Shown here: positions 9,067-23,627 of the stretch, piece by piece
Layout: every line of letters begins with the position of its first letter
How positions within the stretch are numbered: position 1 is the first letter of the stretch
NCBI GenBank assembly: GCA_001771135.1
Contig: MESW01000003.1
Location: 235,786-299,785, forward strand
DNA: 64,000 nucleotides
Reading direction: 5' to 3'
DNA from: a candidate division CPR3 bacterium GWF2_35_18
Lineage (GTDB): Bacteria; Patescibacteriota; CPR3; GWF2-35-18
Notes under the pieces: model-generated
What the model was told of the DNA's origin: nothing
Databases searched by the model: none
The model's input: only the letters and a program-made list of their open reading frames with translations
Position numbers and translations under genes: made by a program

Positions 9067-10526
9067 AGACCCTCCTTTAAAGGAATTAATCTGTTTCTAA
9101 TAAAATTGGGAGTAATTTTTTTTAAAATCAACCAGTCTTCTGGATTAAATAATTTAATAATAAAAACTATAATAAAATAAACAATTATATAGGCAGGAAT
9201 TAATATCAGGTTTCTGCCGGTAAAAATTATTAATAAACCCATCATACTGCTTGCAAAAATAATCTTCAAGACTTCTTTCGAAATATCTAATCTAAAGATA
9301 GAATGATTAATATATAAATAACCTAAAATAAAACCAACACTTTCGTTTGCCACTGTAGCAATAGCTGCTCCTTTGATTCCTATCACAGGTATCAAAATCA
9401 GATTAAGGCTAACATTAATCACTAGATTTGCTATTGCTAAGTAAAGATTAATAACAGGGGTTTTTGAAGCATTAATAATTGCACTTGTAATTGCTGAGTT
9501 AAAAAGAGGAATTAAGGCCCAAATTAATATTTGCATTACTACAATAGCCGGAGCAAATTGGTCTCCGTAGAGAAAAAGTATTCCTTTATCAGCAAGTAAT
9601 GTTCCTCCAACAGCTAAAGGAAAAGCAAAAACATTTAACCATTTTAATAGCTGGTTTGTAGATTTAAGTACCAATGGAGAATTTTTATATAGATTTTGGC
9701 TTAAGGTAGGAAAAACCGTAGTCGAAAGTATTTCAGGAATGATTTTAAAAGTTTCCATAATTTTATAAGAAGCTGAATAAAATCCCACGAAAGATAAACC
9801 TAAAAATATCTCAATAAAAATCGTATCTACCCGATAATAAATAATTCCAATGATAGTCATCAAAGCAAAAGGAAAAGTTCCCCGCATGATGTTGATCCAA
9901 TCAACTCTCCCAAAAACAAATCGAATAGAATAGTTCGTCTCTTTACGAAGGGTAAAATGGCAAAACAAAGCTTTGATTATGGAGATGCCAAACATAGTAT
10001 AGACAAGATAAGTTACACCAAAACCATTTAAAACAAGAACGATTCCAATAAGTCCATAAAAAACAGAATCAAAAATTCTTAAGATTCCTTCATATTTCAT
10101 ATTCTCTTTTACACGATAAAGAATGATCCAGTGGCTAGAATATACATTTATTAAGGATGCAAAGTTTAAAACGTTAAATAATACTCTAATCGTTCCATCT
10201 AAAATAAAAATTTGGGTATAAAGGAAAAAAAGAAGCGTAAAAATAAAGTTAACTAAAAAACGCAATGTAAATATTTGAGACTGATAATTATTTACTTTAT
10301 CAATTTCGATTTTGGGAATTTGCCGAATTGTAAAAATATTTAAACCAAAGGTTGAAATACTATCTAATATTGCAATTACAGATGCTGCATAAGCAAGTTT
10401 TCCAAGCTCACCGGAACCTAACTTACGAGCGATAATTATTCCGACTAAAGCCAGTGCAACTTTACCAATTACATTAGTTAATAGTAAAATCGTCGAGTTA
10501 TTAAAAACTCTTTTTGATACGCTCAT
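9063..10526 (-). CDS. Polysaccharide biosynthesis protein / Wzx-type flippase (MOP superfamily)
   Basis: 487 aa with about 12-14 predicted TM helices, in the usual position within a glycan locus. Confidence 0.7.
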   Translation of the reverse strand: MSVSKRVFNNSTILLLTNVIGKVALALVGIIIARKLGSGELGKLAYAASVIAILDSISTFGLNIFTIRQIPKIEIDKVNNYQSQIFTLRFLVNFIFTLLFFLYTQIFILDGTIRVLFNVLNFASLINVYSSHWIILYRVKENMKYEGILRIFDSVFYGLIGIVLVLNGFGVTYLVYTMFGISIIKALFCHFTLRKETNYSIRFVFGRVDWINIMRGTFPFALMTIIGIIYYRVDTIFIEIFLGLSFVGFYSASYKIMETFKIIPEILSTTVFPTLSQNLYKNSPLVLKSTNQLLKWLNVFAFPLAVGGTLLADKGILFLYGDQFAPAIVVMQILIWALIPLFNSAITSAIINASKTPVINLYLAIANLVINVSLNLILIPVIGIKGAAIATVANESVGFILGYLYINHSIFRLDISKEVLKIIFASSMMGLLIIFTGRNLILIPAYIIVYFIIVFIIKLFNPEDWLILKKITPNFIRNRLIPLKEGL

Positions 10527-10548: not shown

Positions 10549-11832
10549 CTATCTTCCGATACCTTTATAAATAATTCTCTTAGTTATGATTTTTTCTTTA
10601 TCGAGCTTATTCATACCATCCGCTATAACTTTGATATTCTTATGTTTGAATATCTTCTCTTCCAAACCTTTGAATTTATCATGCATTGTGCCAAGAATGA
10701 TCGCGGTTGATTTTTGAAGAAGTTCATCTAATGATTTTACGTTGCTGAGCTGAGGAATATACGGATCAAAAACAAGTAAATCAGCTTCGTATGATTTTAG
10801 AATTTTTTGAATAACCAAACACGGACTTTCCCGTAGATCTCCAACATTTGCTTTGTAGCTTAATCCCAATAATCCTATCTTTGTGCCTTTAATTGGCATT
10901 TTAACCTCATTTAGGCCTTCTTGTAATCGAGAAACAAGATATTTTGGCATAGAGTTATTTACTTCACGCGCGGTTTTCAAAAAAAGATGATTGAATCCAC
11001 TTTTTTCCGCGCGATGAATGAGATAATATGGATCAACTGCAATACAATGGCCTCCTACTCCCCGACTTGGAAAGTGAACCATAAAGGAAAAAGGTTTGTT
11101 TGATGCTGCTTTTAAAGTTTCTATAAGATCAATTCCAAGAACATCAAAAGATTGTGCAAGTTCATTCACAAAAGCAATATTTACGTCACGAAATGAATTT
11201 TCAATAATTTTTGAGGCTTCAGCAACCTTAATATTTGAAACTTCATGAATCTCGCCATTCAATATACTTCTATAAAAGTCGGCTACTTCTTTAGTCTTAT
11301 TAGTAGGAATTGCTCCGATATTTCGAGTAATATTATACACATTCCATTTTGGATCTCCCGGATTAATTCTTTCAGGACAAAAAGCCATTGTGTAATCTTT
11401 ACCGGCAACTAAACCTGATACTTCCTTTACAATTGGAATTAATATTTCTTCACATGTTCCAGGATTTACAGTTGATTCAATAACAATCTTATCTCCCTTG
11501 CGTAAATATTTCGCAGCTACTGCCGTGGCATTTTTGATCGGTTCATAGTTTGGAGTATAATCTTCATAAACAGGAGTTGGAACACAAACAATGATAATAT
11601 CACTGTTTTTCATAATATCCGGATTGCTAGAAACATTTAACACATCTAGTTCATATAGATCTTTTGCACACACTTCATCATCGATAGGACATTTCTTCTT
11701 TACAATCTTTTTTATTTTATCGTCAGAACGATTGTAACCAACAGCATCATATTGTTTTTGCTTGGCAATCGCGCACAGAAGTGGTAAGCCAACATAACCT
11801 AAACCGATCACAGATATTTTTTGTTTTTTCAT
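10549..11832 (-). CDS. Nucleotide-sugar dehydrogenase (UDP-glucose/GDP-mannose dehydrogenase family, WbpA/WecC-like)
   Basis: The start is revised to MKKQKISVIGLGYVGLPL (Rossmann GxGxxG), which has an AAGGAAGG RBS. The listed longer ORF overlaps the neighbouring gene. Catalytic-Cys motif GGHCIAVDPYYL. Confidence 0.85.
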   Translation of the reverse strand: MKKQKISVIGLGYVGLPLLCAIAKQKQYDAVGYNRSDDKIKKIVKKKCPIDDEVCAKDLYELDVLNVSSNPDIMKNSDIIIVCVPTPVYEDYTPNYEPIKNATAVAAKYLRKGDKIVIESTVNPGTCEEILIPIVKEVSGLVAGKDYTMAFCPERINPGDPKWNVYNITRNIGAIPTNKTKEVADFYRSILNGEIHEVSNIKVAEASKIIENSFRDVNIAFVNELAQSFDVLGIDLIETLKAASNKPFSFMVHFPSRGVGGHCIAVDPYYLIHRAEKSGFNHLFLKTAREVNNSMPKYLVSRLQEGLNEVKMPIKGTKIGLLGLSYKANVGDLRESPCLVIQKILKSYEADLLVFDPYIPQLSNVKSLDELLQKSTAIILGTMHDKFKGLEEKIFKHKNIKVIADGMNKLDKEKIITKRIIYKGIGR

Positions 11833-11848
11833 AAACCTTCCTTTTGAA

Positions 11849-12802
11849 TTATTTGACTTTCTCTCTCCAGTAATTAAGCAGATCTTCCATGGTTTTGGTA
11901 AATGGGATTTCTGGCTTCCAACCGGTAGCTTTGTTGAATTTGGAATAATCACCGAGTAAAACTTCGACATCAGATGGTCTCATTCTTTTTGGATCCTGTT
12001 TCACTTCAATTTTTACCTTTGACATATCAATTAACATTTTTAACATATCGCGAATGTAGATCGTTGTCCCACTAGCGATATTATAAACCTCTCCCTGCTC
12101 ACATTCTTGGACCGCTAGATAATAACCACGAACCATGTCTCGAACGTCAGTAAAATCCCGTTGCGAATCAGTATTTCCTACAAATAGAACCGGCTTTTGT
12201 TTGCCTACTTCGATCATTGCAACCTGTTTCGCAAAGTTTGAAGTCACAAAAACATCTCCGCGTCGTGGACCAGTGTGATTAAAACCACGGGTGCGGATAA
12301 TTTTCAGACCATAACTTTGATGATACTGATAACCCATATAATCCATCGCCATTTTAGAAACAGCGTATGGTGAAAGCGGTCGTAATTCGTTTTTTTCCGT
12401 TATTGGAGTTTCTTCAGGTTTAACAAGTCCATATTCTTCTGAAGAACAAGCAATCTGAATTACCGGGGTTTGACCTGACTTGCGTATAGCTTCAAAAAGA
12501 TTATTCGATCCCACCACATTAACCTCAAAAGTTGAGGTCGGAGAAATCCATGAAGTAGGCACAAAAGATTGTGCGGCGAGGTGAAAAACCCAATCGAATT
12601 GATGATCTTTGAAAATATTGTTTAGAGAATGAACATCAAGTAAATCTCCTTCAAGTAGATGCACTTTGTGCTCAATATCTTTGATGTGATCCTTTGGTGA
12701 GCGCCAACGATAGAGACCATAAACTTCATGTCCTTCTTTAAGAAGTAATTCGGCAAGATGAGATCCGGCAAAACCGGTTATACCTGTAATAAATGCTTTC
12801 AT
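11849..12802 (-). CDS. GDP-mannose 4,6-dehydratase-family SDR (Gmd-like)
   Basis: Start revised to MKAFITGITGFAGSHLAELLLKEGHEVYG, which overlaps the upstream stop as ATGA and has a GGAAAGGA RBS. Motifs CSSEEYG, YAVSK and GFNHTGPRRG resemble the Gmd TSE, YxxxK and NHESPRRG motifs. Confidence 0.7.
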   Translation of the reverse strand: MKAFITGITGFAGSHLAELLLKEGHEVYGLYRWRSPKDHIKDIEHKVHLLEGDLLDVHSLNNIFKDHQFDWVFHLAAQSFVPTSWISPTSTFEVNVVGSNNLFEAIRKSGQTPVIQIACSSEEYGLVKPEETPITEKNELRPLSPYAVSKMAMDYMGYQYHQSYGLKIIRTRGFNHTGPRRGDVFVTSNFAKQVAMIEVGKQKPVLFVGNTDSQRDFTDVRDMVRGYYLAVQECEQGEVYNIASGTTIYIRDMLKMLIDMSKVKIEVKQDPKRMRPSDVEVLLGDYSKFNKATGWKPEIPFTKTMEDLLNYWREKVK

Positions 12803-13767
12803 TGTTTTCCTTTCCAATAATTAAAAATATCTTCTAAAGTTTTTTCAATTGGGATCTGAGGCTTCCATTTGGTATCTTTATGAAACTTTCCGTAATTACA
12901 GATTGTAACAGGATTATCAACAGCTCTCAACTTCTTTTTATCAATTTCTATCTTAATATTTTCTCCCGAAAATTGAATTAATTTATCTAAAAGCCATCTC
13001 ACCTTATAACCTTTACCTGAACCTAAATTGTAAACGTCTCCAACTTTGCATTTTTCTACTGCTAAAATATATGCTTTAACAATATCTCTAACATCAGTAA
13101 AATCTCTAGTTACATCGAGATTCCCGACAGAAATAATTTTTTCATTTTCATCCTTTGTCTTTGACTTTTCAATAATCTGCTTCGCGAATGAAGGAATCAC
13201 AAATTCCTCAGTTTGACGAGGCCCGGTATGATTGAAAGCACGAATCCTAATAATCTTTAAACCAAATGACTTAAAATAAGTATACGCAGACAAGTCTTGA
13301 GCTACTTTCGAAAATCCATACGGAGAGACTGGATTTAATGCAACTGTTTCGTCAATGTATGAGACAGATTTGGGTGTCACGCCATATTCTTGAGCAGAAC
13401 CGATGATAAGGATTTTAGGATTTAGCTTTTGTTTTCTAACTTCTTCAAAAATATTTAACTGCACTTCTAAATTATTCAAAATAGTTGGGCTTGCTGAATC
13501 TGTAGCATTACGACCAGAAGACAAAGCCGCCAAGTGATAGATGACGTCTGGTTTTGATTCTTTGATGATTTTCTGCACAAAAGATGAATCCCTTAGATTA
13601 CCTTTTAGAATGTTTATCTTTTTAGTCACAGCAGAGTTGATATCTAACCCACTGCTAAAACTCGTTCCAAAGACTTTTAAGTTTTTGTTAGTCAAATCAT
13701 TTTGAAACAGCTCTTCCGCCAAGAATGATCCCACAAAACCGGTAATTCCGGTAATTAAAATGTTCAT
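12799..13767 (-). CDS. Gmd/Rmd-family SDR paralog, possibly a reductase
   Basis: MNILITGITGFVGSFLAEEL, YGFSK and AFNHTGPRQ motifs. GSAQEYG carries Gln where Gmd has its catalytic Glu, which suggests an Rmd-like reductase. This is an inference. Confidence 0.65.
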   Translation of the reverse strand: MNILITGITGFVGSFLAEELFQNDLTNKNLKVFGTSFSSGLDINSAVTKKINILKGNLRDSSFVQKIIKESKPDVIYHLAALSSGRNATDSASPTILNNLEVQLNIFEEVRKQKLNPKILIIGSAQEYGVTPKSVSYIDETVALNPVSPYGFSKVAQDLSAYTYFKSFGLKIIRIRAFNHTGPRQTEEFVIPSFAKQIIEKSKTKDENEKIISVGNLDVTRDFTDVRDIVKAYILAVEKCKVGDVYNLGSGKGYKVRWLLDKLIQFSGENIKIEIDKKKLRAVDNPVTICNYGKFHKDTKWKPQIPIEKTLEDIFNYWKGKQ

Positions 13768-14675
13768 AATTTTAACTCACTATTTTTTTCCTTCGTTTGT
13801 TTTTTTATCTCTTCTAACCCTTGTTTCAATGATAACATCTTTAATCCCAACTCTTTTGCGGTTTTCTCTGTGTTTAGTGAAACATCAAGAGGTGCTTTGG
13901 TTCTTTTTGTCTTTTCTATATATTTTGAATAGGTAATTCCCTTGACTAGACTTTTATCTAGCCCAAATACTTCCGCAACCCCTCGAGCCAGATCTACCCA
14001 ATTGACATAACTTGTATCGGCAAAATGAAAAACTCCTTGTTTTTTATTCTTAATAATTAATCTTATTCCTTCGGCAATTTTATCAATAAAAATTGGTTTC
14101 AAAAACTGATCTTTCACAACCGTAATTTCTTCTTTGTTTTGAAGCTTCGGAATCATCCACCGCACACAATCGTTTTTGAGTGGATAGTTTGCGCGGTAAG
14201 GATAATTGATTCGAATAATGCTATATTTACAACCACCATTTTTAACAATTTCTTCCGCCTGATATTTTGTCTCAGCGTAAAAATTCTGCGGTTCCGGTTT
14301 ATCTTCTTCTTTATAATTACCTCGGTCCCCTTTAAAAACAAAACCGGTCGACATAAAAATAAAATGGCTATTATGACTTTTACTCTCAATAACTAAACTT
14401 CTTGTTCCTTCGACGTTAATTTTCGTAGCTAAGTTATGATCTTTTTCACAAAGCTCTAAATCCGCAATTGCGGCAAGATGTAAAACAATATCTGGATTTT
14501 CTTGAATAAAAACTTCAGAAACCCTATTTTTATCAGTTATGTCTAAAAAGATATTTTTGATTTCCCTATTCTGATGCGAGGTTCTATCTCCACTCACAAT
14601 TTCAAAATCTTGATGTAAAAGCTCAATTATTCTACTGCCGATTAATCCGGAACCTCCGGTAATGAGTAATTTCAT
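13764..14675 (-). CDS. NAD(P)-dependent sugar epimerase/reductase (RmlD- or Fcl/ColC-like SDR)
   Basis: MKLLITGGSGLIGSRI Rossmann motif and a YAETK (YxxxK) motif. 303 aa. Confidence 0.6.
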   Translation of the reverse strand: MKLLITGGSGLIGSRIIELLHQDFEIVSGDRTSHQNREIKNIFLDITDKNRVSEVFIQENPDIVLHLAAIADLELCEKDHNLATKINVEGTRSLVIESKSHNSHFIFMSTGFVFKGDRGNYKEEDKPEPQNFYAETKYQAEEIVKNGGCKYSIIRINYPYRANYPLKNDCVRWMIPKLQNKEEITVVKDQFLKPIFIDKIAEGIRLIIKNKKQGVFHFADTSYVNWVDLARGVAEVFGLDKSLVKGITYSKYIEKTKRTKAPLDVSLNTEKTAKELGLKMLSLKQGLEEIKKQTKEKNSELKL

Positions 14676-14786
14676 AGAATTTAAGTTTAATATTTATTGT
14701 CATCCTAAAATTCATTCAGGATCTTACAATATACAATAACCCCTAGATTCCGGATCAAGTCCGGAATGACAGAAAAAAAGATATCT

Positions 14787-15761
14787 TCATTTATTCTCAC
14801 CAAGCAACTTTTCCCACCAACGGTGGTTTTTGATATACCAGTCGATTGTTTGTTCCATCGCTTCGTTAAAATTCCACTTTGCCTGCCAACCTAATTCTGT
14901 TCTAATTTTTGAAACATCAATTGATCTTCTTTGGGTATGACCAACCGGTTCTTTTACAAAGTCGATAAGATCTTTGGAACGATCCATAATCGTTAAAATA
15001 AGTTCCGTTACTTCCAAAACTGACTTTTCACAAGAAGCACCAATATTATAAACCTGACCATTAGTATTTTTCCCATGCAAAACATAGTCAATAGCTTCTA
15101 CCTGATCTTCAACATAGATCCAATCACGCATATGTTTTCCTTCACCATGAATCGGAAGTTTTTTACCCTCTAAAGCTTGTATAATAAAAAAAGGAATTAA
15201 TTTCGTTGGATATTGATACGGTCCAAAATTATTGGCGCAACGTAAAATAGTTACAGGTGTTTCGTAAGTCAAATAATAAGAATAAGCCAACCTGTCAGAT
15301 CCGGATTTTGAAGCGGCTCCCGGTGTCATTGGATTCAGAGAATCTGTTTCCGTAAAAAGCTTTGCCGCATCCTTTTCAATCACTGAATCTCCATATACCA
15401 CATAGTCAGAAACATGAATCAGTTTTCGAATTTTATCTTTTCTGATAGCCTCAAGTAGATTAAAAGTACCGACAATATCTGTTGTGAGAAAAGATCCATC
15501 ACTATCAAATCTAAGACTCGTTGCAAGATTAATTATAACTTCAGCGTCATTCACAAGGGGTTGAATGATTTTACTATCTCTAATATCACCCTCTACAAAT
15601 TTGTATTTATGGTCACCTACAATCTCTTCCATACTATCCATATCATGCTGGTAAGACAGTTTATCCATATTCACAATTTCGTATCCTGGATATTTTTTAA
15701 AAAGATATTTGATTAAATGTTTTCCGATAAAACCGGAACCACCGATAATTAAAAGTTTCAT
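14787..15761 (-). CDS. RmlB-like (dTDP-glucose 4,6-dehydratase family) paralog that has lost the catalytic residues
   Basis: Collinear similarity to the adjacent RmlB across most of its length (NNFGPY, GKKLPIHGEGKHMRDWIYVED). However, YSASK is replaced by GAASK and TDEVFG by SDYVVYG. Confidence 0.7.
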   Translation of the reverse strand: MKLLIIGGSGFIGKHLIKYLFKKYPGYEIVNMDKLSYQHDMDSMEEIVGDHKYKFVEGDIRDSKIIQPLVNDAEVIINLATSLRFDSDGSFLTTDIVGTFNLLEAIRKDKIRKLIHVSDYVVYGDSVIEKDAAKLFTETDSLNPMTPGAASKSGSDRLAYSYYLTYETPVTILRCANNFGPYQYPTKLIPFFIIQALEGKKLPIHGEGKHMRDWIYVEDQVEAIDYVLHGKNTNGQVYNIGASCEKSVLEVTELILTIMDRSKDLIDFVKEPVGHTQRRSIDVSKIRTELGWQAKWNFNEAMEQTIDWYIKNHRWWEKLLGENK

Positions 15762-15764
15762 AGA

Positions 15765-16772
15765 TTATCTTCCATATTGTTTTTGATAATATTTTTGATA
15801 CTCACCGGATTTTATATTCATCCACCAAGTACGATTATCTTTATACCAACTGATAGTTTTTTCTAAATAAGTATCAAAATCATGTAAAGGCTTATAACCT
15901 AATTCTTTCGCAGCCTTGGAATGATCTAGGCCATATCTACGATCATGTCCGGGACGGTCTTTGACAAACTCAATTTTATCTTCCTTTTCTTCCATTATTT
16001 CTAGGATTTTTTTTACGACTTCAAGATTACTTTTTTCACTATCACCACCAATACAATAGGTCTCACCAAATTTACCTTTTTGCAAAATAAGATCAATGGC
16101 TCGACAATGATCTTCAACATATAACCAATCGCGGACATTTTTTCCATCACCGTAAACCGGAACTTTTTTCCCTTCGAGTAAATTCGTAATCGTAAGTGGG
16201 ATAAATTTTTCCGGAAAATGATAGGGACCGTAATTATTTGAGGTGTTGCTAATCGTTACCGGTAAAGAATAAGTCTTGTAATAAGCACGAACTAAACAAT
16301 CAGAACCAGCTTTACTGGCAGAATAAGGTGAATTTGGCCGAAACGGTGAATCCTCATTGAATCTATCCTGAGTATTTAATTCTAAAGATCCGAAAACCTC
16401 ATCAGTGGAAATGTGATGAAAATGTTTAATATTATGCTTCAAAGCTGATTCCAATAAGACGTTCGTTCCTAAAACATTAGTTTTCACAAAAACCGTAGGA
16501 TCCATGATAGAACGATCCACATGAGTCTCCGCCGCAAAGTGAACGATTTTGTCTACTCCAACAAGTATCCTGTCTACAAAATTAACATCCGTGATATCAC
16601 CTTTTACAAATTGATAACGCGGATTTTTTTCAAGAAATTTCAGGTTTTCCAGATTCCCACAATAAGTTAATTTATCAAGATTAAGAATCTCATCTTCGGG
16701 ATGATTTTTGAGATAGTAGTGAATAAAATTGGAACCGATAAATCCAGCTCCACCGGTAACAAGTAGCTTCAT
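15765..16772 (-). CDS. rmlB: dTDP-glucose 4,6-dehydratase
   Basis: GGAGFIGSN, HISTDEVFG and PYSASK motifs, plus NNYGPYHFPEKFIPL...GDGKNVRDWLYVEDH. Classic RfbB/RmlB. Confidence 0.9.
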   Translation of the reverse strand: MKLLVTGGAGFIGSNFIHYYLKNHPEDEILNLDKLTYCGNLENLKFLEKNPRYQFVKGDITDVNFVDRILVGVDKIVHFAAETHVDRSIMDPTVFVKTNVLGTNVLLESALKHNIKHFHHISTDEVFGSLELNTQDRFNEDSPFRPNSPYSASKAGSDCLVRAYYKTYSLPVTISNTSNNYGPYHFPEKFIPLTITNLLEGKKVPVYGDGKNVRDWLYVEDHCRAIDLILQKGKFGETYCIGGDSEKSNLEVVKKILEIMEEKEDKIEFVKDRPGHDRRYGLDHSKAAKELGYKPLHDFDTYLEKTISWYKDNRTWWMNIKSGEYQKYYQKQYGR

Positions 16773-17206
16773 TATTTTACAACTCCTTGAATTAATTCTT
16801 CCTCCGAATATTCAACCTGCTCATCTTTAAGGCTCGGATCGTAAGCCGGATCTGGATAATTCACAAGCCAGGCAACTTCGTTACCGATATTTAGTAAACC
16901 GGTTGCGATATTTTTAGGAATAAATAGGCGTTGCGGATTCTCTGCATCCAATATGTGTTCTTCCTTTTCCGCTGTACCTGGTTTATATAAAGTAATCTTC
17001 ATCTTACCTTTCAGACAAACATATCGAGCCGCTCGCACCCGATGCAGATGATAACCTTTAAACATTCCCGGATTAGTTGCCGCTAGATAAACCTCCGTTT
17101 TTGTATCACTAATATCTTTAAACAATTCTATTAAAAATCCATTATCTTGTCCGGAATGATCTTTTGTTCCTACTTTTTTTGCTGATTCGATTTTTGCTAG
17201 AGCCAT
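16772..17206 (-). CDS. Cupin-fold sugar-nucleotide isomerase/epimerase: FdtA/QdtA/WxcM-like 3,4-ketoisomerase or a short RmlC-like protein
   Basis: 144 aa. KGYHLHR resembles the WxcM/FdtA RGxHAHK motif rather than RmlC RGLHFQ. Too short for a canonical RmlC. Confidence 0.5.
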   Translation of the reverse strand: MALAKIESAKKVGTKDHSGQDNGFLIELFKDISDTKTEVYLAATNPGMFKGYHLHRVRAARYVCLKGKMKITLYKPGTAEKEEHILDAENPQRLFIPKNIATGLLNIGNEVAWLVNYPDPAYDPSLKDEQVEYSEEELIQGVVK

Positions 17207-17239
17207 AAGAAATTAATCCTTTCATCTATAACTAAAATT

Positions 17240-18016
17240 TTATTCTCGATTTCTATATAAATTCATTAAATCTTTCTTTTCATTTTCTCCCATCAACTCC
17301 TTGGCAACAAGAATATTCGCACGCATAAGTTCTTCGAAAGAAGACCCGGCATCCACCCACCAATCTTTGAGAACTTCACAGGTAAGCGTTCCTTGTTTCA
17401 GATAAAAATTGTTAAGATCGGTAACTTCCATTTCTCCCCGTGCCGAAGGATTTTGTTTCTCAATAAAATCAAAAACCTGACTATCATACATATAAATTCC
17501 AGTTTGGGCTAGGTCTGATTTTGGATATTGAGGTTTTTCCTCTATAGAAATAACTTTTCCCTTTTTATCGAGTTCAATCACGCCATAATGCTTACACTCG
17601 GTTGGCATTCTTTTGGCAACAACCTTCGCTCCTTTTTTCTGCCTGTCAAAATCTACAACCGCTTTACTTAAGTTATAACTAAAAATATTATCACCCAAAA
17701 TAACTACAATTTTTTCATTATCGGCAAAACTCTTTGATAATCCGATCGCCTGTGCAATTCCACCTTTGGGATTATCCTGAACCTCGTATGATATTTTGAC
17801 TCCAAAATTATCTATTTTTTTTAAAAGAGTGATGAATTGACCAACATGTTCCGGATTGGTGGTAATCAAAATTTCTTTGATACCGGCTTGGACTAAAGAT
17901 TCCAAGGGATAAAAAATCATCGGTTTATTATAGATCGGAAGTAAATGTTTATTCGTCACCCAAGTTAAAGGACGAAGTCGAGTGGCCATTCCTCCAGCAA
18001 GAATTACACCTTTCAT
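17240..18016 (-). CDS. Sugar-1-phosphate nucleotidyltransferase (RmlA/ManC-like)
   Basis: MKGVILAGGMATRLRPLT nucleotidyltransferase signature. 258 aa. Confidence 0.8.
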   Translation of the reverse strand: MKGVILAGGMATRLRPLTWVTNKHLLPIYNKPMIFYPLESLVQAGIKEILITTNPEHVGQFITLLKKIDNFGVKISYEVQDNPKGGIAQAIGLSKSFADNEKIVVILGDNIFSYNLSKAVVDFDRQKKGAKVVAKRMPTECKHYGVIELDKKGKVISIEEKPQYPKSDLAQTGIYMYDSQVFDFIEKQNPSARGEMEVTDLNNFYLKQGTLTCEVLKDWWVDAGSSFEELMRANILVAKELMGENEKKDLMNLYRNRE

Positions 18017-18064: not shown

Positions 18065-18997
18065 TCAAATATGTTTATCTTTCATCCAAACATGTTTATA
18101 CCAATTAACGGTTTTTTTGATTCCTTCTTCAAGCGAAACTGCAGCTTTCCATCCTAATTCTTTCTTGATCTTAGAAACATCGGCAATCGTTGTGATTTGA
18201 TCGCCAGGACGTGGACCAAGATCATCTATCTGATATTCTTTCCCAACTGCTTTTCCAATTAAATCTAATAATTTATCAATTCTGGTTCCTTTTTCTGTTC
18301 CAATATTATAGACGTGAAAACCTGTCTGCGTAAGTGGAGACACATGAGCATGAGCGATATCTTCCACAAACACAAAATCGCGAACACATTCGCCCTTCCA
18401 ATAAAGAGGGACTTTTTTCCCCTTCATAATTGATTTGATAAAATTGGGAAAAACATGTGATTCTTCATGTTTCTTCATCCACGGACCATATGCATTGAAA
18501 TAACGTAAAATTGTGGGATGAAAACCATAGCATTTATGATAAGTAAAAAGCATATCTTCAAACATTAATTTGGTCGCCCCATAAGGATTACCCGTAAACT
18601 TCGGAGCATCTTCTTTTATAGGAACAGGTACGTTTTCAGCATAAACAGCAGCCGTCGAGGAAAAAATAATTTTCTTAACTCCGGAAAGTCTCATTTCCTC
18701 AAGAAGGTTAATTCCATTTACCACATTGTTTTCAAAATATTTATCCGGGTGCTTTACCGATTCCGAGACTTCGATTAAAGCTGCCATATGAATAACCACA
18801 TCAATTCCTTTTAAGGATTTTTGGATCGCTGCTCTATCCTTAAGATCGGCCACAATTAATGTTGCTCTTTTGTCTACAGTTTCGGAGAAACCTTCGGAGA
18901 GATTGTCAAAAACCACTACCTGATGTTTCAGATCACATAAAAGTTTGACGATACTTGAACCAATAAAACCGGCACCGCCGGTAACTAAAATTTTCAT
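18065..18997 (-). CDS. NAD-dependent epimerase (UDP-glucose 4-epimerase GalE-like)
   Basis: MKILVTGGAGFIGSSIV and YGATK motifs. Confidence 0.8.
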   Translation of the reverse strand: MKILVTGGAGFIGSSIVKLLCDLKHQVVVFDNLSEGFSETVDKRATLIVADLKDRAAIQKSLKGIDVVIHMAALIEVSESVKHPDKYFENNVVNGINLLEEMRLSGVKKIIFSSTAAVYAENVPVPIKEDAPKFTGNPYGATKLMFEDMLFTYHKCYGFHPTILRYFNAYGPWMKKHEESHVFPNFIKSIMKGKKVPLYWKGECVRDFVFVEDIAHAHVSPLTQTGFHVYNIGTEKGTRIDKLLDLIGKAVGKEYQIDDLGPRPGDQITTIADVSKIKKELGWKAAVSLEEGIKKTVNWYKHVWMKDKHI

Positions 18998-19005
18998 AAT
19001 TTGAG

Positions 19006-19410
19006 TTATCCTTTTTGATTTAATTCTTCGTTTTTCCCCGATCTTTCTGCAAGATCAGTCCAAAGATCTTGAGAATAAAGCGTAACACCATCTTTCTGAA
19101 GTAGATTTTTTATTCTGGACATTTCACTAAAATCAACAAACTCTTTCCCTTTTACACTAATTATTCTCACGATAAATAAAGTACTAATCAAATCTTGTTT
19201 CTGTCGACCGGAATCAGATCCATCATCTTTCACTTTTTGCTCGCTATATCCATGTATTGAATACTGAATCCTGTTTTCTTGTAAAACAGCCTCTGTAACT
19301 TCTAGATCCTCAGCACAAACAAGAACTTCAGTCATAGACAAGCGTGGTCTCTCTATTTTGATCTTATTATCAGGTAACGGAATTCTTCCCGATTCATGAT
19401 TTTGACCCAT
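19006..19410 (-). CDS. Hypothetical protein (134 aa)
   Basis: ORF only. No family was recognised with confidence. Confidence 0.35.
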   Translation of the reverse strand: MGQNHESGRIPLPDNKIKIERPRLSMTEVLVCAEDLEVTEAVLQENRIQYSIHGYSEQKVKDDGSDSGRQKQDLISTLFIVRIISVKGKEFVDFSEMSRIKNLLQKDGVTLYSQDLWTDLAERSGKNEELNQKG

Positions 19411-19421
19411 GATATCTTTAT

Positions 19422-20210
19422 TTAATTATTAGAATTAGCTCCTTTTACTTTTTCGATTTCGCGAAGAAGCTTTTCATTCATCATTGTTTCGATCTCGCTC
19501 TTAACAAGCTCATCATATTGAGTGCTATTAAGAACATCGACTATTTTTTGCTTTAATTCATAAGATGGAGTTGCCATATTGGTTTCTACAAGTGAGTTGA
19601 TTGCATTCTTAATTCCTGAAATCGAGATTGTCTGTAAATCTTGATAATAACTAGATTTCGTCCCAACCTTATCAGCAAAGTAATCAATCACTCCTTGTTG
19701 TTTAACAGTATTTGCCTCAATTTTTCTCACTAAAGCTATTAAATCCTCACTATTTAACTCTTTTAATTCAGAGAGTGAATTTGTTGCCAAAGTAATTTGT
19801 TCATTATAGGTATTCAAAGTATCTTTGGCTTTATCAAAGCTTTTATTTTCAATTAGACGATAACTTTCGGATAATCTTCTTTCTGCATTTTTGAGGATCA
19901 TCTCTACTTTTTTAGTTTCGTCAAAAGTAAAAAACAACACCACTTTCTCCCAAAGAATCTTTAGAGGATAAAATGGTGAGGTTGGCAAAATCATTACTTC
20001 CGGTAAACCAAGGGTTAAAAATCCTTTGATTTTGGAAGCGCTTTTGGACGTTTCAATATCTGGTAAAGAATCCGAATCACTGGTTTCTTTCGTAGAAGCT
20101 AAAAATGGAGAGGTTGCCTCTTCACTTTCTAGTGGAATATCTTCAGCAAAAATGGGGGTAGTATTACTTAAGACTAATAATACAAAAACAAAGATAATTG
20201 CTTTTTTCAT
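19422..20210 (-). CDS. Secreted hypothetical protein with a signal peptide
   Basis: MKKAIIFVFVLLVLSNTTPIFA signal peptide followed by a helical, acidic body. Confidence 0.5.
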   Translation of the reverse strand: MKKAIIFVFVLLVLSNTTPIFAEDIPLESEEATSPFLASTKETSDSDSLPDIETSKSASKIKGFLTLGLPEVMILPTSPFYPLKILWEKVVLFFTFDETKKVEMILKNAERRLSESYRLIENKSFDKAKDTLNTYNEQITLATNSLSELKELNSEDLIALVRKIEANTVKQQGVIDYFADKVGTKSSYYQDLQTISISGIKNAINSLVETNMATPSYELKQKIVDVLNSTQYDELVKSEIETMMNEKLLREIEKVKGANSNN

Positions 20211-20870: not shown

Positions 20871-23627
20871 TTAGGCTAATCTAACAGTAAAAGAGAACGT
20901 ACTTCCTTTACCTAAGATTGATTTGACTCCGATTTTTCCACCATGCAATTCTACTAATGCTTTTGAGATATACAATCCCAATCCAGTTCCAGATGTTTCG
21001 GAAATCATCGCATATGATTCATCGAGTCTTACAAATTTTTTAAACAGTTTTGGAATATCCTGTCTAGAAATTCCTCTACCAGTATCAGTCACATCAATCT
21101 GTACAAATTTACCTTTACGATGAGCCCCTACTTTTACCTTGCCATGCGGAGAGGTAAATTTTAAAGCATTCCCCACCAAATTGAGAAGAACTTCACGGAT
21201 TTTCTTTTCATCAATATCTACTTTTGGCAGTAAAGCTTTAGAGAAGTCATATGTAAGCTCAATCTTCTTCTCAACAGCTTTTGGCAATATTTCATCAAAG
21301 GTACTTTTTATCAGATCTTCTATCTGCTCCGGATGAAATACCATCTCAATTCTTCCACCTTCAATACGCGAGACATCAAGCATATCGGAAACCAAAGCAA
21401 TCAATCTTTCTGTGGATCTAATGATTTTATCTAAATAATCTTTTTGGTGCGGAGATAAACGAGCCTTATGTTTCCCTCTTTGTAACATCCACGCATATCC
21501 CTGAATTGCAGTCATAGGTGTTCGCAATTCATGTGAAGCGATGGAAACAAATTCATCCTTCATCCGATCTAGCTCTTTAAGATGATTATTGGCTCTTTCA
21601 AGTTGTTCATTTGTATGCGTAAGACTGTCGTAAAGACTGGCATTCTCGATCGCAATTCCTGTTTGATCTGCAAAAGCCTGCATTAACTCTTTTTCTTTAC
21701 TGGTAATCTTCTTGATATCTTTCTGTAATCCAAGGACAACTACCCCTAATTTTTTACCTTTCGCCGAAAGTGGCCAAACGACGTTGGTCTTTATGCCCGT
21801 TTGTTGTTGAATTTTCTTACTCAAACTTTCTGGTATTACTGGATTATAAAGATCGGAAAGACGTGGAAAATACATTGGTTTTGATTCAAAAACGGTCTTT
21901 ACTAAAGGATTTTCTTTATCAAATAAAGAAATTGTAAATTGGTGAATTTTTTTAGGCAAATATTCTTTAATTTTATCGAAACTAGGGGTTTGAGAAATAG
22001 CTCGAGCGCGTAGAATATGGTGTTTCTCGTCAATAAGAGCAATCATTCCCCCTACATAACCCATTTCCCATGAGATTGTATCTACGATTTTCTGACTCAT
22101 GAGATCAAGATCTAAAGTATTCATAATAATCTGATCTAAGCTACGTAATATCGCCAAAAAGTGATTTTTTCCACGTAAATCTGCAGTAGCATTAGCAACC
22201 TCTTTCTGCAGGTTTTTAGAAAAGTTCTGAACCTCAGAATAGAGATATGCGTTTTCTATTGCAATCCCAGCCTGATATGACAACGTTTCTAACGAATGAA
22301 TATCATTGACAGTAAAAGCTTCATTGCTCTTTTTCTCTCCTAGAATAATCATTCCGGTAATCTTCTCTGTTCCATGTAAGGGAATGATTACCTGTCCTGA
22401 CACCTTAGAAAGCTCTTCAATAATTTTCTCTGACTCAACTTTCTTTAGATCGGTATCAAGCTGAGCTCTCATTTCATCGATCACTAAAATCTCTTCATCA
22501 CGTAAAATTCTCTGAATAATTGGATCTTGTATAGCAAGATCAAAATTATTTAACTTATCACCCATAGATCTTAGTTCATTATTATTAGAAAAAATGAAAA
22601 AAGTGACAAAATTCACATGAAAAACGTCTTTAAATGCATCCTGTATTCTTTTAACAAGAGATTCTAGATCAATACTTTCAGCCATTGTACGAGCAAGACG
22701 ATTTAAAACCTCTTGCTCCGTATAAGTACGTTGGAAAAAAAATTTATCCGTCACGAGAATAATAATATTACTGATAAACTGACCCAAAAGTGCAACAATC
22801 AATACCAAAACAAAGATCAGAATAAATGCACGAGTATCGATTGGTACTTTTGTCAAAAGACTATAGACATATAGACCTAAGACTGAAATACCAAAAAGAA
22901 TGGAGCTATAAAGAAGCTTAATAATTAGAGCTCGAACCGCAAAACGGATATCAAGAAAACGCGTTTTCATTATTGCATAAGTTATAAATCCTACAAGCAA
23001 TAAAGTAGCAACAGGACCAAGATTTTGTATATCATAATATCCTGTAAACAATGGTATAAAAATATTAGTTAAAGATCCAAAGATTACTGCAAAAGTAATC
23101 CCAAGGATAAAAAATTTGATTTGCAACCTTTCTATACCTACGCTTTTTCTAAGCTTTTTAATTAGGAAAAAAATGTTTGCTATAGTATATCCGACGAAAT
23201 GAATTATAAACCAAATATATAGAGAACCATAAACAGTTGTTCTACTATTTCCATTAACCAATTCTTCTGCTGCTATTAATGGTGTAAAAAATGCCACTAT
23301 AAATAGTAGAAGACTTTCAGTGAATGTAAATTTAGTAATATATTTAAATTTAAAACTTTCTTCTTTTGGAAAAATCTCAACAAACTTTAATAATAAGTAA
23401 GGCATTAATGACGAAGCTGCGAAGTTAAAACGGCCCATCCATAATACGAAAACACAATTATTAATATAATAATATAAGTACAAGCTAACTAACCAAGCAA
23501 TTATACATAAAATAAACAAAGTAAATAAGATATTTTTTTTATTATGTTTATTTTTAGAAAAAACAATTACAGCTAGAAAAAAATTAGCAAAAAAAGTAAA
23601 AGCATAGAAAGGTAAAGAATTTTCCAT
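20871..23627 (-). CDS. Sensor histidine kinase: multi-TM N-terminus, GAF domains, HisKA and HATPase_c. No response regulator in the window.
   Basis: 918 aa. About 7 N-terminal TM helices. H-box SIASHELRTPMTAIQGY. ATPase G-boxes DTGRGI and GTGLGLYISKALVELHGGKIGV. Confidence 0.85.
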   Translation of the reverse strand: MENSLPFYAFTFFANFFLAVIVFSKNKHNKKNILFTLFILCIIAWLVSLYLYYYINNCVFVLWMGRFNFAASSLMPYLLLKFVEIFPKEESFKFKYITKFTFTESLLLFIVAFFTPLIAAEELVNGNSRTTVYGSLYIWFIIHFVGYTIANIFFLIKKLRKSVGIERLQIKFFILGITFAVIFGSLTNIFIPLFTGYYDIQNLGPVATLLLVGFITYAIMKTRFLDIRFAVRALIIKLLYSSILFGISVLGLYVYSLLTKVPIDTRAFILIFVLVLIVALLGQFISNIIILVTDKFFFQRTYTEQEVLNRLARTMAESIDLESLVKRIQDAFKDVFHVNFVTFFIFSNNNELRSMGDKLNNFDLAIQDPIIQRILRDEEILVIDEMRAQLDTDLKKVESEKIIEELSKVSGQVIIPLHGTEKITGMIILGEKKSNEAFTVNDIHSLETLSYQAGIAIENAYLYSEVQNFSKNLQKEVANATADLRGKNHFLAILRSLDQIIMNTLDLDLMSQKIVDTISWEMGYVGGMIALIDEKHHILRARAISQTPSFDKIKEYLPKKIHQFTISLFDKENPLVKTVFESKPMYFPRLSDLYNPVIPESLSKKIQQQTGIKTNVVWPLSAKGKKLGVVVLGLQKDIKKITSKEKELMQAFADQTGIAIENASLYDSLTHTNEQLERANNHLKELDRMKDEFVSIASHELRTPMTAIQGYAWMLQRGKHKARLSPHQKDYLDKIIRSTERLIALVSDMLDVSRIEGGRIEMVFHPEQIEDLIKSTFDEILPKAVEKKIELTYDFSKALLPKVDIDEKKIREVLLNLVGNALKFTSPHGKVKVGAHRKGKFVQIDVTDTGRGISRQDIPKLFKKFVRLDESYAMISETSGTGLGLYISKALVELHGGKIGVKSILGKGSTFSFTVRLA

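What the first reader, a model, noticed from the sequence alone, without database searches (positions are those of the whole stretch)
14787..15761. Tandem RmlB paralog that has lost the catalytic Tyr and TDE motif
The protein is collinear and clearly homologous to the adjacent true dTDP-glucose 4,6-dehydratase. However, YSASK has become GAASK (the catalytic Tyr is replaced by Gly) and ISTDEVFG has become VSDYVVYG (the Asp-Glu acid/base pair is lost). The Rossmann motif is intact. This is either a pseudoenzyme kept for a scaffolding or regulatory role, or an SDR repurposed for a different chemistry.
Basis: seen in the sequence. Interest (0 to 1): 0.5.

Follow-up and report, generated by a model that had tools for sequence, protein, structure and literature searches.

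The report
Conserved catalytically dead RmlB paralog
Next to the normal rhamnose-pathway dehydratase gene, this groundwater bacterium keeps a second, anciently diverged copy that has lost its catalytic residues yet is strongly conserved, so it most likely acts as a non-catalytic helper protein, a kind not yet described for this enzyme in bacteria.

Summary
ORF 14787..15761 (-) encodes a 324-aa protein ("RmlB'") that is collinear with the adjacent canonical dTDP-glucose 4,6-dehydratase (41% identity, E 9e-88). It reads SDYVVYG where RmlB has STDEVFG, and PGAASK where RmlB has PYSASK. The Rossmann motif and the Lys are kept.

It is not a decaying copy. About ten 90%-identity clusters from candidate divisions CPR3 and WWE3 share an invariant S-D-Y, and the old Tyr position varies (G/E/A/K/S). 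dN/dS against a 97%-identical ortholog is 0.03. In every locus recovered, the gene sits downstream of a canonical rmlB in the same rml operon.

It is not a recent tandem duplicate. The family and the partner RmlBs are separate, well-supported clades.

Relative to the partner RmlB, constraint is relaxed on the NAD and sugar-pocket motifs and raised on several helices.

My best reading (about 0.55) is a non-catalytic partner or scaffold in dTDP-rhamnose synthesis, comparable to C. elegans RML-5. The main rival (about 0.3) is an SDR with new chemistry built around the family-specific invariant residues D119, Y120, H205 and R279. Public records label it "dTDP-glucose 4,6-dehydratase" or "hypothetical". 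Interest is moderate.

The parts
14787..15761 (-). RmlB' coding sequence: 324-aa extended-SDR protein derived from RmlB, catalytically degenerate
   Evidence: ORF. Pfam GDP_Man_Dehyd/Epimerase hits; TIGR01181 scores 338 bits, below the 365 cutoff. AF2 pLDDT 87.5; Foldseek TM 0.91 to RmlB structures. dN/dS 0.027.
15723..15743 (-). Rossmann GGSGFIG (G7-G13), intact
   Evidence: G7, G8, G10, F11 and G13 are invariant in the family and in canonical RmlB.
15498..15524 (-). Remodelled loop A80-D88 (ATSLRFDSD) replacing AAESHVDRSI, with a 4-aa deletion
   Evidence: Alignments. Variable within the family. AF2 pLDDT about 70.
15390..15410 (-). S118-D119-Y120-V121-V-Y-G124 replacing S-T-D-E-V-F/Y-G. The catalytic Thr and the Asp/Glu acid-base pair are lost. 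D119 and Y120 are invariant in the family.
15363..15389 (-). Loop insertion after YG (D125-A133). It is shared with some canonical relatives such as P0271-2 and P0124.
   Evidence: AF2 pLDDT below 50 at residues 129-133.
15306..15323 (-). P147-G148-A-A-S-K152. Catalytic Tyr is replaced by Gly (G/E/A/K/S across the family). Lys is retained.
15147..15149 (-). H205, a family-invariant His at the thymine-stacking Tyr position (DesIV Tyr208, S. enterica Tyr224)
   Evidence: Role of this residue, and His in UDP-glucose dehydratases: PMC9741107.
14925..14927 (-). R279, a family-invariant Arg replacing the Tyr of GHDRRY
15762..15773 (-). rmlB/rmlB' junction: GGAAGA (Shine-Dalgarno-like, inside the rmlB 3' end), TAA stop, 3 nt, then ATG
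   Evidence: Sequence. The equivalent genes overlap by 4 nt in L005 and L007.
15765..16772 (-). Canonical RmlB (dTDP-glucose 4,6-dehydratase), the upstream partner
   Evidence: TIGR01181 scores 484.7 bits, above the cutoff. All catalytic and pocket residues are canonical in the six partner RmlBs examined.
16772..18016 (-). Short cupin RmlC-like gene (16772..17206) and RmlA (17240..18016), upstream in the same operon
   Evidence: Orthologs hit dTDP_sugar_isom.
13764..14675 (-). RmlD-like 4-ketoreductase, downstream after a 111-nt spacer
   Evidence: PF04321 E 3e-56; TIGR01214 scores 167.9 bits, below the cutoff.

Best explanation
RmlB' is an ancient paralog of dTDP-glucose 4,6-dehydratase that has lost dehydratase chemistry and is kept as a non-catalytic protein in the dTDP-L-rhamnose operon of CPR3/WWE3 (Patescibacteria).

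Shown:
- The fold, the Rossmann glycines, D33, D59, K152, N178 and the pyrophosphate Arg (R212) are retained.
- The Thr, Asp and Tyr of the dehydratase fingerprint are replaced throughout the family, and Glu as well in the CPR3 branch.
- The gene is under strong purifying selection.
- It is co-inherited with a fully canonical rmlB.
- Selective constraint has shifted from the cofactor and sugar-pocket motifs to helices alpha4, 188-197 and 248-258.

Inferred:
- It is made together with RmlB from one transcript.
- It works through protein-protein contacts. One possibility is a heterodimer with RmlB through the SDR four-helix-bundle interface. The other is an RML-5-like scaffold for the downstream epimerase and reductase steps.
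- It may still hold NAD(H) and an NDP moiety as structural or regulatory ligands.
- It stabilises, regulates or channels the labile dTDP-4-keto-6-deoxyglucose intermediate.
For: - Catalytic residues are replaced, and the old Tyr site varies freely (G/E/A/K/S).
- The Glu base is kept in the WWE3 branch and in P0004 but lost in the rest of the CPR3 branch, so the shared function does not need it.
- dN/dS is 0.027 against L011. dN across lineages is 0.14-0.23, against 0.18-0.26 for the partner RmlB and 0.28-0.40 for RmlD.
- Synteny is conserved as rmlA-rmlC-rmlB-rmlB'. In window, L004-L010 and L012 the next gene is rmlD (window/L012 are the same organism and L007-L010 carry an identical RmlB'; L010 ends before it). 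In L021/L022 the same order holds, except that a 141-aa ORF separates rmlB from rmlB' and rmlD is not adjacent.
- Related operons that lack RmlB' run rmlB-rmlD directly, so the pathway is complete without it.
- The partner RmlB is canonical at every diagnostic site.
- Within CPR3, RmlB' is overall more conserved than RmlB (0.72 vs 0.68). It is less conserved at NAD motifs (0.83 vs 0.98) and pocket walls (0.74 vs 0.90, permutation P about 0.001). It is more conserved at three helices (0.87-0.95 vs 0.68-0.78).
- The family and partner trees both split WWE3 from CPR3, consistent with co-inheritance.
- There is a precedent in the same pathway. C. elegans RML-5 has an RmlB-like domain lacking catalytic residues and is required to obtain active RML-4 reductase (PMC9741107).
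Against: - There is no direct evidence of any protein-protein interaction. No multimer prediction or coordinates were available.
- Four family-specific invariant residues (D119, Y120, H205, R279) lie at former active-site positions, and the Rossmann motif is perfectly kept. This fits a working ligand pocket as well as a plugged one.
- Tight gene spacing is general in this compact operon (rmlC/rmlB share 1 nt, rmlD/rmd overlap by 4 nt), so coupling is weak evidence for a complex.
- In L021/L022 a 141-aa ORF separates rmlB from rmlB'.
- The set of helices with raised constraint was chosen after seeing the data.
- The constraint comparison rests on only 4-6 genomes.
Confidence: 0.55

Rival explanations
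1. RmlB' is a repurposed SDR enzyme. It still binds NAD(P)(H) and an NDP-sugar, possibly UDP-linked given H205. It uses a relocated catalytic set (D119 at the Thr site, Y120 at the Asp site, K152, R279) for a reaction other than 4,6-dehydration. Candidate reactions are C4 oxidation/epimerisation or 4-keto reduction of the RmlB product to a different 6-deoxyhexose.
For: - D119, Y120, H205 and R279 are invariant across both sub-branches and occur in 0-2% of canonical RmlBs.
- GxxGxxG, D33, D59, K152, N178 and R212 are retained.
- Purifying selection is as strong as on true enzymes.
- Tyr-less SDR dehydratases that remain active are known. PglF/WbpM carry TDK...Mx3K, with Thr and Asp taking the C4-OH proton (PMC8987622).
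- His at the stacking position is the state seen in UDP-glucose 4,6-dehydratases (PMC9741107).
Against: - No known active NDP-sugar SDR lacks both the Ser/Thr and the Tyr. PglF keeps T-D-K.
- The position that should carry a replacement base varies freely.
- The Glu is not conserved within the family.
- The NAD-contacting DKLTYAGN and AAESHVD segments are among the least conserved parts of RmlB', while they are the most conserved parts of the partner RmlB.
- The probable sister group of Tyr-less RmlB-likes often loses the Lys as well (K to Q).
- No pathway step is missing in the operon.
Confidence: 0.3
2. RmlB' is a ligand sensor in the manner of NmrA/HSCARG. It is an SDR fold without catalysis that reads NAD(H) or an NDP-sugar such as dTDP-rhamnose and modulates another protein, for example the pathway enzymes or the sensor kinase encoded upstream. 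This is a special case of the non-catalytic reading.
For: - The Rossmann motif and the pyrophosphate-binding Arg are retained, and a stacking His is conserved.
- A histidine kinase gene is conserved upstream of the cluster in CPR3 (window 20871..23627) and in WWE3 (L022).
Against: - No evidence links it to regulation.
- The adenine-ribose loop is poorly conserved.
- The kinase linkage may be plain synteny.
Confidence: 0.1
3. RmlB' is still a dTDP-glucose 4,6-dehydratase, as the GenBank annotation of KKP70329.1 states, and uses alternative residues.
For: It has the highest similarity to TIGR01181 (338 bits) and an RmlB fold. The public annotation says so.
Against: - The score is below the equivalog cutoff.
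- Thr, Asp and Tyr of [ST]DE...Yx3K are all replaced, and Glu too in the CPR3 branch.
- E198-equivalent, the SHVD loop and the Y301-equivalent are also changed.
- A canonical RmlB is encoded 3 nt upstream.
Confidence: 0.03
4. RmlB' is a functionless relic, that is, a pseudogene in the evolutionary sense or an assembly artefact.
For: Loss of catalytic residues.
Against: - The ORF is intact in all orthologs.
- 119.5 synonymous against 24.5 non-synonymous differences to L011, giving dN/dS 0.027.
- The identical protein occurs in 27 assembly blocks.
- The family spans 50-97% identity with conserved synteny.
Confidence: 0.02

Closest known systems
dTDP-glucose 4,6-dehydratase RmlB/RfbB (TIGR01181; structures 2HUN, 6BI4, 1KEU, 1KER, 1R66)
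   Same: - Same extended-SDR fold (Foldseek TM 0.91) and 40-52% sequence identity.
- GxxGxxG, D33, D59, K of Yx3K, NNxGP and RDWxYV are all retained.
- It lies in the same operon.
   Different: - T to D, D to Y, E to V/E/A, and Y to a variable residue.
- The SHVD loop is remodelled or deleted.
- PEK becomes PTK, the stacking Tyr becomes His, and GHDRRY becomes GHTx[KR]R.
- The C-terminal tail is lost.
- It scores below the family cutoff.
C. elegans RML-5 (accessory protein of the dTDP-rhamnose pathway; Feng et al. 2016 as summarised in PMC9741107)
   Same: - An RmlB-like SDR domain with catalytic residues not conserved.
- It acts in the same pathway.
- It is proposed as a scaffold needed for an active partner enzyme (RML-4).
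   Different: - RML-5 is a eukaryotic two-domain (RmlB-like plus RmlD-like) protein.
- I could not compare the sequences, and an independent origin is likely.
- The partner of the CPR protein is unknown.
PglF / WbpM (and, from my own recall, CapE/FnlA): SDR dehydratases without the catalytic Tyr (TDK...Mx3K)
   Same: NDP-sugar SDRs in which the Yx3K Tyr is replaced.
   Different: - They keep Thr-Asp-Lys, which takes over proton abstraction, and a conserved Met at the Tyr site. They are active.
- RmlB' has D-Y-V/E, and its Tyr site is unconstrained.
Other non-catalytic relatives of sugar-nucleotide or SDR enzymes: GalF (GalU-like regulator, listed in NCBIfam); MAT2B and NmrA/HSCARG (SDR-fold regulators; from general knowledge, not tested here)
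   Same: An enzyme fold kept for binding or regulation after loss of catalysis. The nucleotide-binding motif is often retained.
   Different: These are different families and partners. No homology-specific link was shown here.
Other Tyr-less RmlB-like proteins of CPR metagenomes (P0122, P0148, P0149, P0183, P0191, P0226)
   Same: - They lose the Tyr, and often the Lys as well.
- The SHVD loop is deleted.
- They carry a PHTRRR-like motif resembling GHTxRR.
- They group with the SDY family in the NJ tree (68.5% bootstrap).
   Different: - They keep S-S-D-E.
- P0183 and P0191 sit directly after a DUF5667 gene and not next to rmlB.
- The grouping may be long-branch attraction.

Membership tests
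dTDP-glucose 4,6-dehydratase (RmlB, EC 4.2.1.46, TIGR01181) | Extended SDR fold with an N-terminal GxxGxxG Rossmann motif | tested here: met
   GGSGFIG is present. Pfam PF16363/PF01370 hits. AF2 pLDDT 87.5; Foldseek TM 0.91 to 6BI4/2HUN/1KEU.
dTDP-glucose 4,6-dehydratase (RmlB, EC 4.2.1.46, TIGR01181) | [ST]-D-E wall: catalytic Thr plus the Asp/Glu acid-base pair (PMC8987622, Table 1) | tested here: not met
   S-D119-Y120-V121 in the window. SDY[VEA] across the family.
dTDP-glucose 4,6-dehydratase (RmlB, EC 4.2.1.46, TIGR01181) | Yx3K dyad | tested here: not met
   G148xxxK152. The Tyr site is G/E/A/K/S in the family. Lys is retained.
dTDP-glucose 4,6-dehydratase (RmlB, EC 4.2.1.46, TIGR01181) | Score at or above the curated equivalog cutoff | tested here: not met
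   338.4 bits against a cutoff of 365.1. The neighbour scores 484.7.
dTDP-glucose 4,6-dehydratase (RmlB, EC 4.2.1.46, TIGR01181) | [quoted passage not shown] | not testable with these tools
   This needs an enzyme assay.
Tyr-less active SDR dehydratases (PglF/WbpM type) | T-D-K wall with an Mx3K dyad | tested here: not met
   D-Y-V and GxxxK. No conserved residue occupies the Tyr site (fingerprint).
Pseudoenzyme partner of a catalytic paralog (RML-5-like) | Catalytic residues lost while the fold is retained | tested here: met
Pseudoenzyme partner of a catalytic paralog (RML-5-like) | Purifying selection and conservation across lineages | tested here: met
   dN/dS 0.027. dN is no higher than that of the partner RmlB. 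Orthologs occur in CPR3 and WWE3.
Pseudoenzyme partner of a catalytic paralog (RML-5-like) | Stable genomic linkage with the catalytic paralog and pathway | tested here: met
   All recovered loci that extend upstream have it downstream of a canonical rmlB in the rml operon.
Pseudoenzyme partner of a catalytic paralog (RML-5-like) | Constraint shifted away from active-site and cofactor residues | tested here: met
   NAD motifs 0.83 vs 0.98. Pocket walls 0.74 vs 0.90 (P about 0.001). Only 4-6 genomes were compared.
Pseudoenzyme partner of a catalytic paralog (RML-5-like) | Physical interaction with, and effect on, a partner enzyme | not testable with these tools
   No multimer prediction or coordinates were available. 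This needs co-expression or pull-down.
NmrA-like non-catalytic SDR sensors | Dinucleotide binding without turnover, coupled to a regulatory partner | not testable with these tools
   Only motif retention could be checked.

The most novel reading that the evidence does not exclude
RmlB' is an active NDP-sugar SDR that has abandoned both the Ser/Thr and the Tyr of the SDR triad. It uses a relocated Asp119/Tyr120 pair with Lys152, assisted by Arg279 and a UDP-type stacking His205. It carries out a new transformation, for example a 4-epimerisation or a 4-keto reduction giving a different 6-deoxyhexose, on the product of the adjacent RmlB. This would define a new catalytic solution within the extended SDRs and a new deoxysugar branch in CPR bacteria.
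Probability: 0.2. Interest if true: 0.7.

Novelty: new variant of a known kind. Interest (0 to 1): 0.45.

Why it matters
- Dead paralogs of metabolic enzymes are a known category, but I found no description of one for bacterial RmlB. Two literature searches returned nothing.
- Public records label this protein "dTDP-glucose 4,6-dehydratase" or "hypothetical".
- CPR bacteria have very small genomes, so a second, non-catalytic copy kept at dN/dS of about 0.03 implies a real role in building their rhamnose-containing envelope.
- If it partners RmlB or RmlD, it would be a bacterial counterpart of C. elegans RML-5. That would hint that the labile 4-keto-6-deoxy intermediate is handled by an enzyme complex.
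- If it is instead catalytic, it would be an SDR that works without the canonical triad.
- It also gives a concrete annotation rule: an SDY motif plus absence of the Yx3K Tyr means the protein is not RmlB.

Tried and rejected
- **Genome-contig scan.** I used the single protein as the query. An alignment query would have been better.
- **Metagenome-contig scan.** It gave no new family members. It was still useful for showing that rmlB-rmlD adjacency is the common state.
- **Literature.** Searches for "RmlB" with "pseudoenzyme", and for loss of the catalytic tyrosine, gave 0 papers. One badly targeted search gave nothing relevant. The primary RML-5 paper (PMC4888466) is not held.
- **Rfam scan of the window.** No hits, so no rRNA-based taxonomy. 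The organism was identified through the exact-protein look-up instead.
- **Recent tandem duplication.** I considered and rejected this. RmlB' is 37-43% identical to its own neighbour but up to 52% identical to RmlBs of other phyla. The two groups were never sisters in 200 bootstraps.
- **N248V and GHD-to-GHT/V as evidence for a changed nucleotide.** I rejected this because canonical relatives P0271-P0273, which have STDE and Tyr intact, share those states.
- **P0121 as an intermediate.** It looked like one (397 bits) but is a canonical RmlB with an internally duplicated segment.
- **Heterodimer prediction.** Not attempted. The structure tool folds single chains, returns no coordinates or PAE, and concatenated sequences are not accepted.
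Full report
**1. The observation**

The window carries a minus-strand sugar-nucleotide operon:

| Coordinates | Product |
|---|---|
| 19422..20210 | DUF5667-type secreted protein |
| 19006..19410 | 134-aa ORF |
| 18065..18997 | GalE-like SDR |
| 17240..18016 | RmlA |
| 16772..17206 | short cupin, RmlC-like |
| 15765..16772 | 335-aa SDR |
| 14787..15761 | the flagged 324-aa SDR |
| 13764..14675 | RmlD-like reductase |
| 12799..13767 | GDP-mannose-dehydratase-family SDR |
| 11849..12817 | GDP-mannose-dehydratase-family SDR |
| 10549..11970 | UDP-glucose-dehydrogenase-like protein |
| 9063..10526 | flippase |

The 335-aa protein is a bona fide RmlB. It scores 484.7 bits on TIGR01181, above the 365.1 cutoff. 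The flagged protein, called RmlB' here, scores 338.4 bits, below that cutoff.

The two proteins are collinear: 41% identity over 320 columns, E 9e-88. The motif alignment has no gap. HISTDEVFG aligns with HVSDYVVYG, and SPYSASK aligns with TPGAASK. BLASTP, MAFFT and phmmer against five solved RmlBs all give this register. GGSGFIG is intact.

- The AAESHVDRSI loop is remodelled, with a 4-residue deletion.
- An insertion follows YG.
- PEK becomes PTK.
- PVYGDG becomes PIHGEG.
- GHDRRY becomes GHTQRR.
- The C-terminal GEYxxYY tail is missing.

**2. Origin and family**

The exact protein is KKP70329.1/OGB63537.1 of candidate division CPR3 bacterium GW2011_GWF2_35_18. It is annotated either "dTDP-glucose 4,6-dehydratase" or "hypothetical protein". 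The neighbour is KKP70330.1. The identical protein is listed in 27 blocks of public assemblies, including Rifle groundwater metagenomes.

A search of 5.8 billion proteins returns a sharp step. P0001-P0007 are 67-97% identical and P0008 is 50% identical. Everything else is canonical RmlB at 52% or less. A profile search adds P0270. The P0008 cluster contains sequences from candidate division WWE3.

All members read S-D-Y-[V/E/A]-V-Y-G. The old Tyr site is G, E, A, K or S, and the Lys is kept.

An exhaustive HMMER search of 1.84 billion 50%-identity representatives finds one representative for the whole family (P0008, 546 bits). After that come canonical RmlBs at about 350 bits. P0121 scores 397 bits but is an internally duplicated canonical sequence.

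In a census of 269 retrieved relatives, 229 carry STDE plus Tyr. Only this family has SDY with no Tyr. The family is rare, with roughly 50 sequences, and is restricted to one lineage.

**3. It is functional, not decaying**

I compared the window gene with its 97%-identical ortholog on L011 by the Nei-Gojobori method. There are 119.5 synonymous and 24.5 non-synonymous differences. This gives dS 1.20, dN 0.032 and dN/dS 0.027.

Across the more distant CPR3 lineages dS is saturated. There dN of RmlB' is 0.14-0.23. That is no higher than the partner RmlB (0.18-0.26) and lower than RmlD (0.28-0.40).

**4. Context**

In every locus with flanking sequence, the gene lies downstream of a canonical rmlB in the order rmlA-rmlC-rmlB-rmlB'. 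In window, L004-L009 and L012 rmlD follows directly. L014 and L010 end before reaching it.

The start and stop codons overlap by 4 nt in L005 and L007. In the window the junction is GGAAGA-TAA-tct-ATG. In L021/L022 a 141-aa ORF lies between rmlB and rmlB', and rmlD is displaced.

Tight spacing is the rule throughout this compact operon. It is therefore only weak evidence for a specific complex.

Operons whose RmlB is 60-68% identical to the window's RmlB but which lack RmlB' run rmlB-rmlD directly. RmlB' is thus an addition to an already complete pathway. All six partner RmlBs examined are canonical at every diagnostic site.

**5. History**

RmlB' is 37-43% identical to its own neighbour but up to 52% identical to RmlBs of other phyla. 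I built an NJ tree with 200 bootstraps:

| Grouping | Bootstrap support |
|---|---|
| SDY family monophyletic | 95.5% |
| Partner RmlBs monophyletic | 99.5% |
| SDY family sister to partner RmlBs | 0% |
| SDY family with other Tyr-less RmlB-likes (P0122, P0148, P0149, P0183, P0191, P0226) | 68.5% |

The last grouping may be long-branch attraction.

Both the family tree and the partner tree split WWE3 from CPR3, consistent with co-inheritance. "Tandem paralog" is therefore right as a description of position, but this is an old paralog.

Canonical relatives P0271-P0273 share the loop insertion, V248 and GHVKRH. Those features are not part of the degeneration.

**6. What is kept and what is lost**

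Of 93 columns that are at least 85% conserved in 233 canonical RmlBs, 56 are retained in the family. These include G7, G8, G10, F11, G13, D33, D59, K152, N178, R212, W214 and others.

The 37 changed columns cluster in three kinds of site:
- the catalytic walls;
- the SHVD loop and the adenine-ribose loop (DKLTYAGN);
- E186, Y205 and the GHDRRY motif.

The published fingerprint for dTDP/UDP-glucose 4,6-dehydratases is [ST]DE...Yx3K. The only Tyr-less active dehydratases listed there, PglF and WbpM, keep T-D-K with Mx3K (PMC8987622). RmlB' fits neither.

The Glu base survives in the WWE3 branch and in P0004 (SDYE). It is V or A in the rest of the CPR3 branch. The shared function therefore does not need it.

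Four residues are invariant in all nine non-redundant members and occur in 0-2% of canonical sequences: D119, Y120, H205 and R279.

H205 aligns with DesIV Tyr208 and S. enterica Tyr224. That is the residue that stacks on the thymine ring. It is His in eukaryotic UDP-glucose 4,6-dehydratases, where it favours UDP-glucose (PMC9741107).

**7. Where selection acts**

I compared per-column pairwise identity of RmlB' with that of the partner RmlB from the same genomes. Within the four CPR3 genomes the values are:

| Region | RmlB' | Partner RmlB |
|---|---|---|
| Overall | 0.72 | 0.68 |
| NAD-contact motifs | 0.83 | 0.98 (permutation P 0.015) |
| Sugar-pocket walls | 0.74 | 0.90 (permutation P 0.001) |
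| Helix alpha4 (90-107) | 0.87 | 0.74 |
| Helix 188-197 | 0.95 | 0.78 |
| Helix 248-258 | 0.95 | 0.68 |

The same pattern, only stronger, appears with all six genomes.

Two caveats apply. Only 4-6 genomes were compared. The helix set was chosen after seeing the profile, and the motif sets were partly defined after looking at the data.

The AF2 model is confident overall (pLDDT 87.5, pTM 0.88). It is weakest exactly at the remodelled loops: residues 31-50, 81-90, 121-140 and 271-280. Its best PDB matches are RmlB structures with TM about 0.91.

**8. Interpretation**

The combination of findings is what a pseudoenzyme kept for binding looks like:
- The catalytic residues are lost.
- The old Tyr site varies freely.
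- Constraint on cofactor and substrate motifs is relaxed.
- Constraint on helices is raised.
- Overall purifying selection is very strong.
- The gene is strictly linked to a fully competent RmlB.

There is a precedent in this very pathway. C. elegans RML-5 has an RmlB-like domain lacking essential catalytic residues. It must be co-expressed to obtain active RML-4 reductase, and a scaffolding role was proposed for it (PMC9741107, citing Feng et al. 2016).

I therefore commit, at about 0.55, to a non-catalytic partner in dTDP-rhamnose synthesis. I cannot tell which partner it has. The options are a heterodimer with RmlB through the four-helix bundle, an RML-5-like scaffold for RmlC or RmlD, or a ligand-sensing subunit.

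The main rival, at about 0.3, is a repurposed enzyme. The four family-specific invariant residues sit at former active-site positions, and the Rossmann motif is perfectly retained. These could equally mark a working pocket built around an Asp/Tyr/Lys set and a UDP-type nucleotide.

Continued dehydratase activity (0.03) and a functionless relic (0.02) are very unlikely.

**9. Novelty**

I found no description of a catalytically degenerate RmlB paralog in bacteria. No solved structure carries this motif set. The general category is well known, so I rate this a new variant of a known kind, with moderate interest (0.45). The practical outcome is an annotation correction and a compact set of experiments that would separate the two live readings.

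Noticed in passing
L007:4998-7019 (also L008, L009, L010): The canonical RmlB partner in the WWE3 loci is 673 aa. A 331-aa intein-like insertion (Pfam Intein_splicing, weak) splits the conserved AAES|THVDRS motif. The excised sequence is a normal RmlB.
   Followed up: partly
L017:1579-2568; L018:6001-6972; L019:992-1963; L020:830-1801: Another group of RmlB-like proteins (P0183, P0191, also P0122, P0148, P0149, P0226) has lost the Tyr and often the Lys (K to Q) but keeps S-S-D-E. Where context exists, they sit directly after a DUF5667 gene and not in an rml operon. They may form a wider clade of dead RmlB-like proteins in CPR (68.5% NJ support with the SDY family).
   Followed up: partly
window 20871..23627 (-) and 19422..20210 (-); L022:245-3989; L021:1-3604: A large 7TM/GAF-type sensor histidine kinase followed by a signal-peptide DUF5667 protein precedes the galE-rml cluster in both the CPR3 window and the WWE3 loci. 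The kinase-DUF5667-sugar operon arrangement is therefore conserved.
   Followed up: no
L021:6955-7380; L022:7340-7765: A 141-aa ORF with no Pfam hit is inserted between rmlB and rmlB' in one WWE3-type lineage.
   Followed up: no
window 16772..17206 (-): The RmlC-like cupin is only 144 aa. It has no NCBIfam hit and only weak FdtA/PF14667 Pfam hits. Its counterparts in L005/L006/L007 (153-184 aa) hit dTDP_sugar_isom. Its stop shares a base with the rmlB start.
   Followed up: no
window 14676..14786 (about 14747-14765, minus strand): The 111-nt spacer between rmlB' and rmlD contains a perfect 7-bp hairpin, TTCCGGA-cttga-TCCGGAA, with no clear T-run. It was not called by the terminator scan.
   Followed up: no
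window 10549..11970 (-) vs 11849..12817 (-): The mechanical ORF of the UDP-glucose-dehydrogenase-like gene (473 aa) overlaps the upstream TTG-start SDR ORF by about 120 nt. Public gene calls give 427 aa and 317 aa, so the true starts are probably further downstream.
   Followed up: no
L005:553-1578: One partner RmlB (L005) also carries His instead of Tyr at the thymine-stacking position, although it is otherwise canonical.
   Followed up: no
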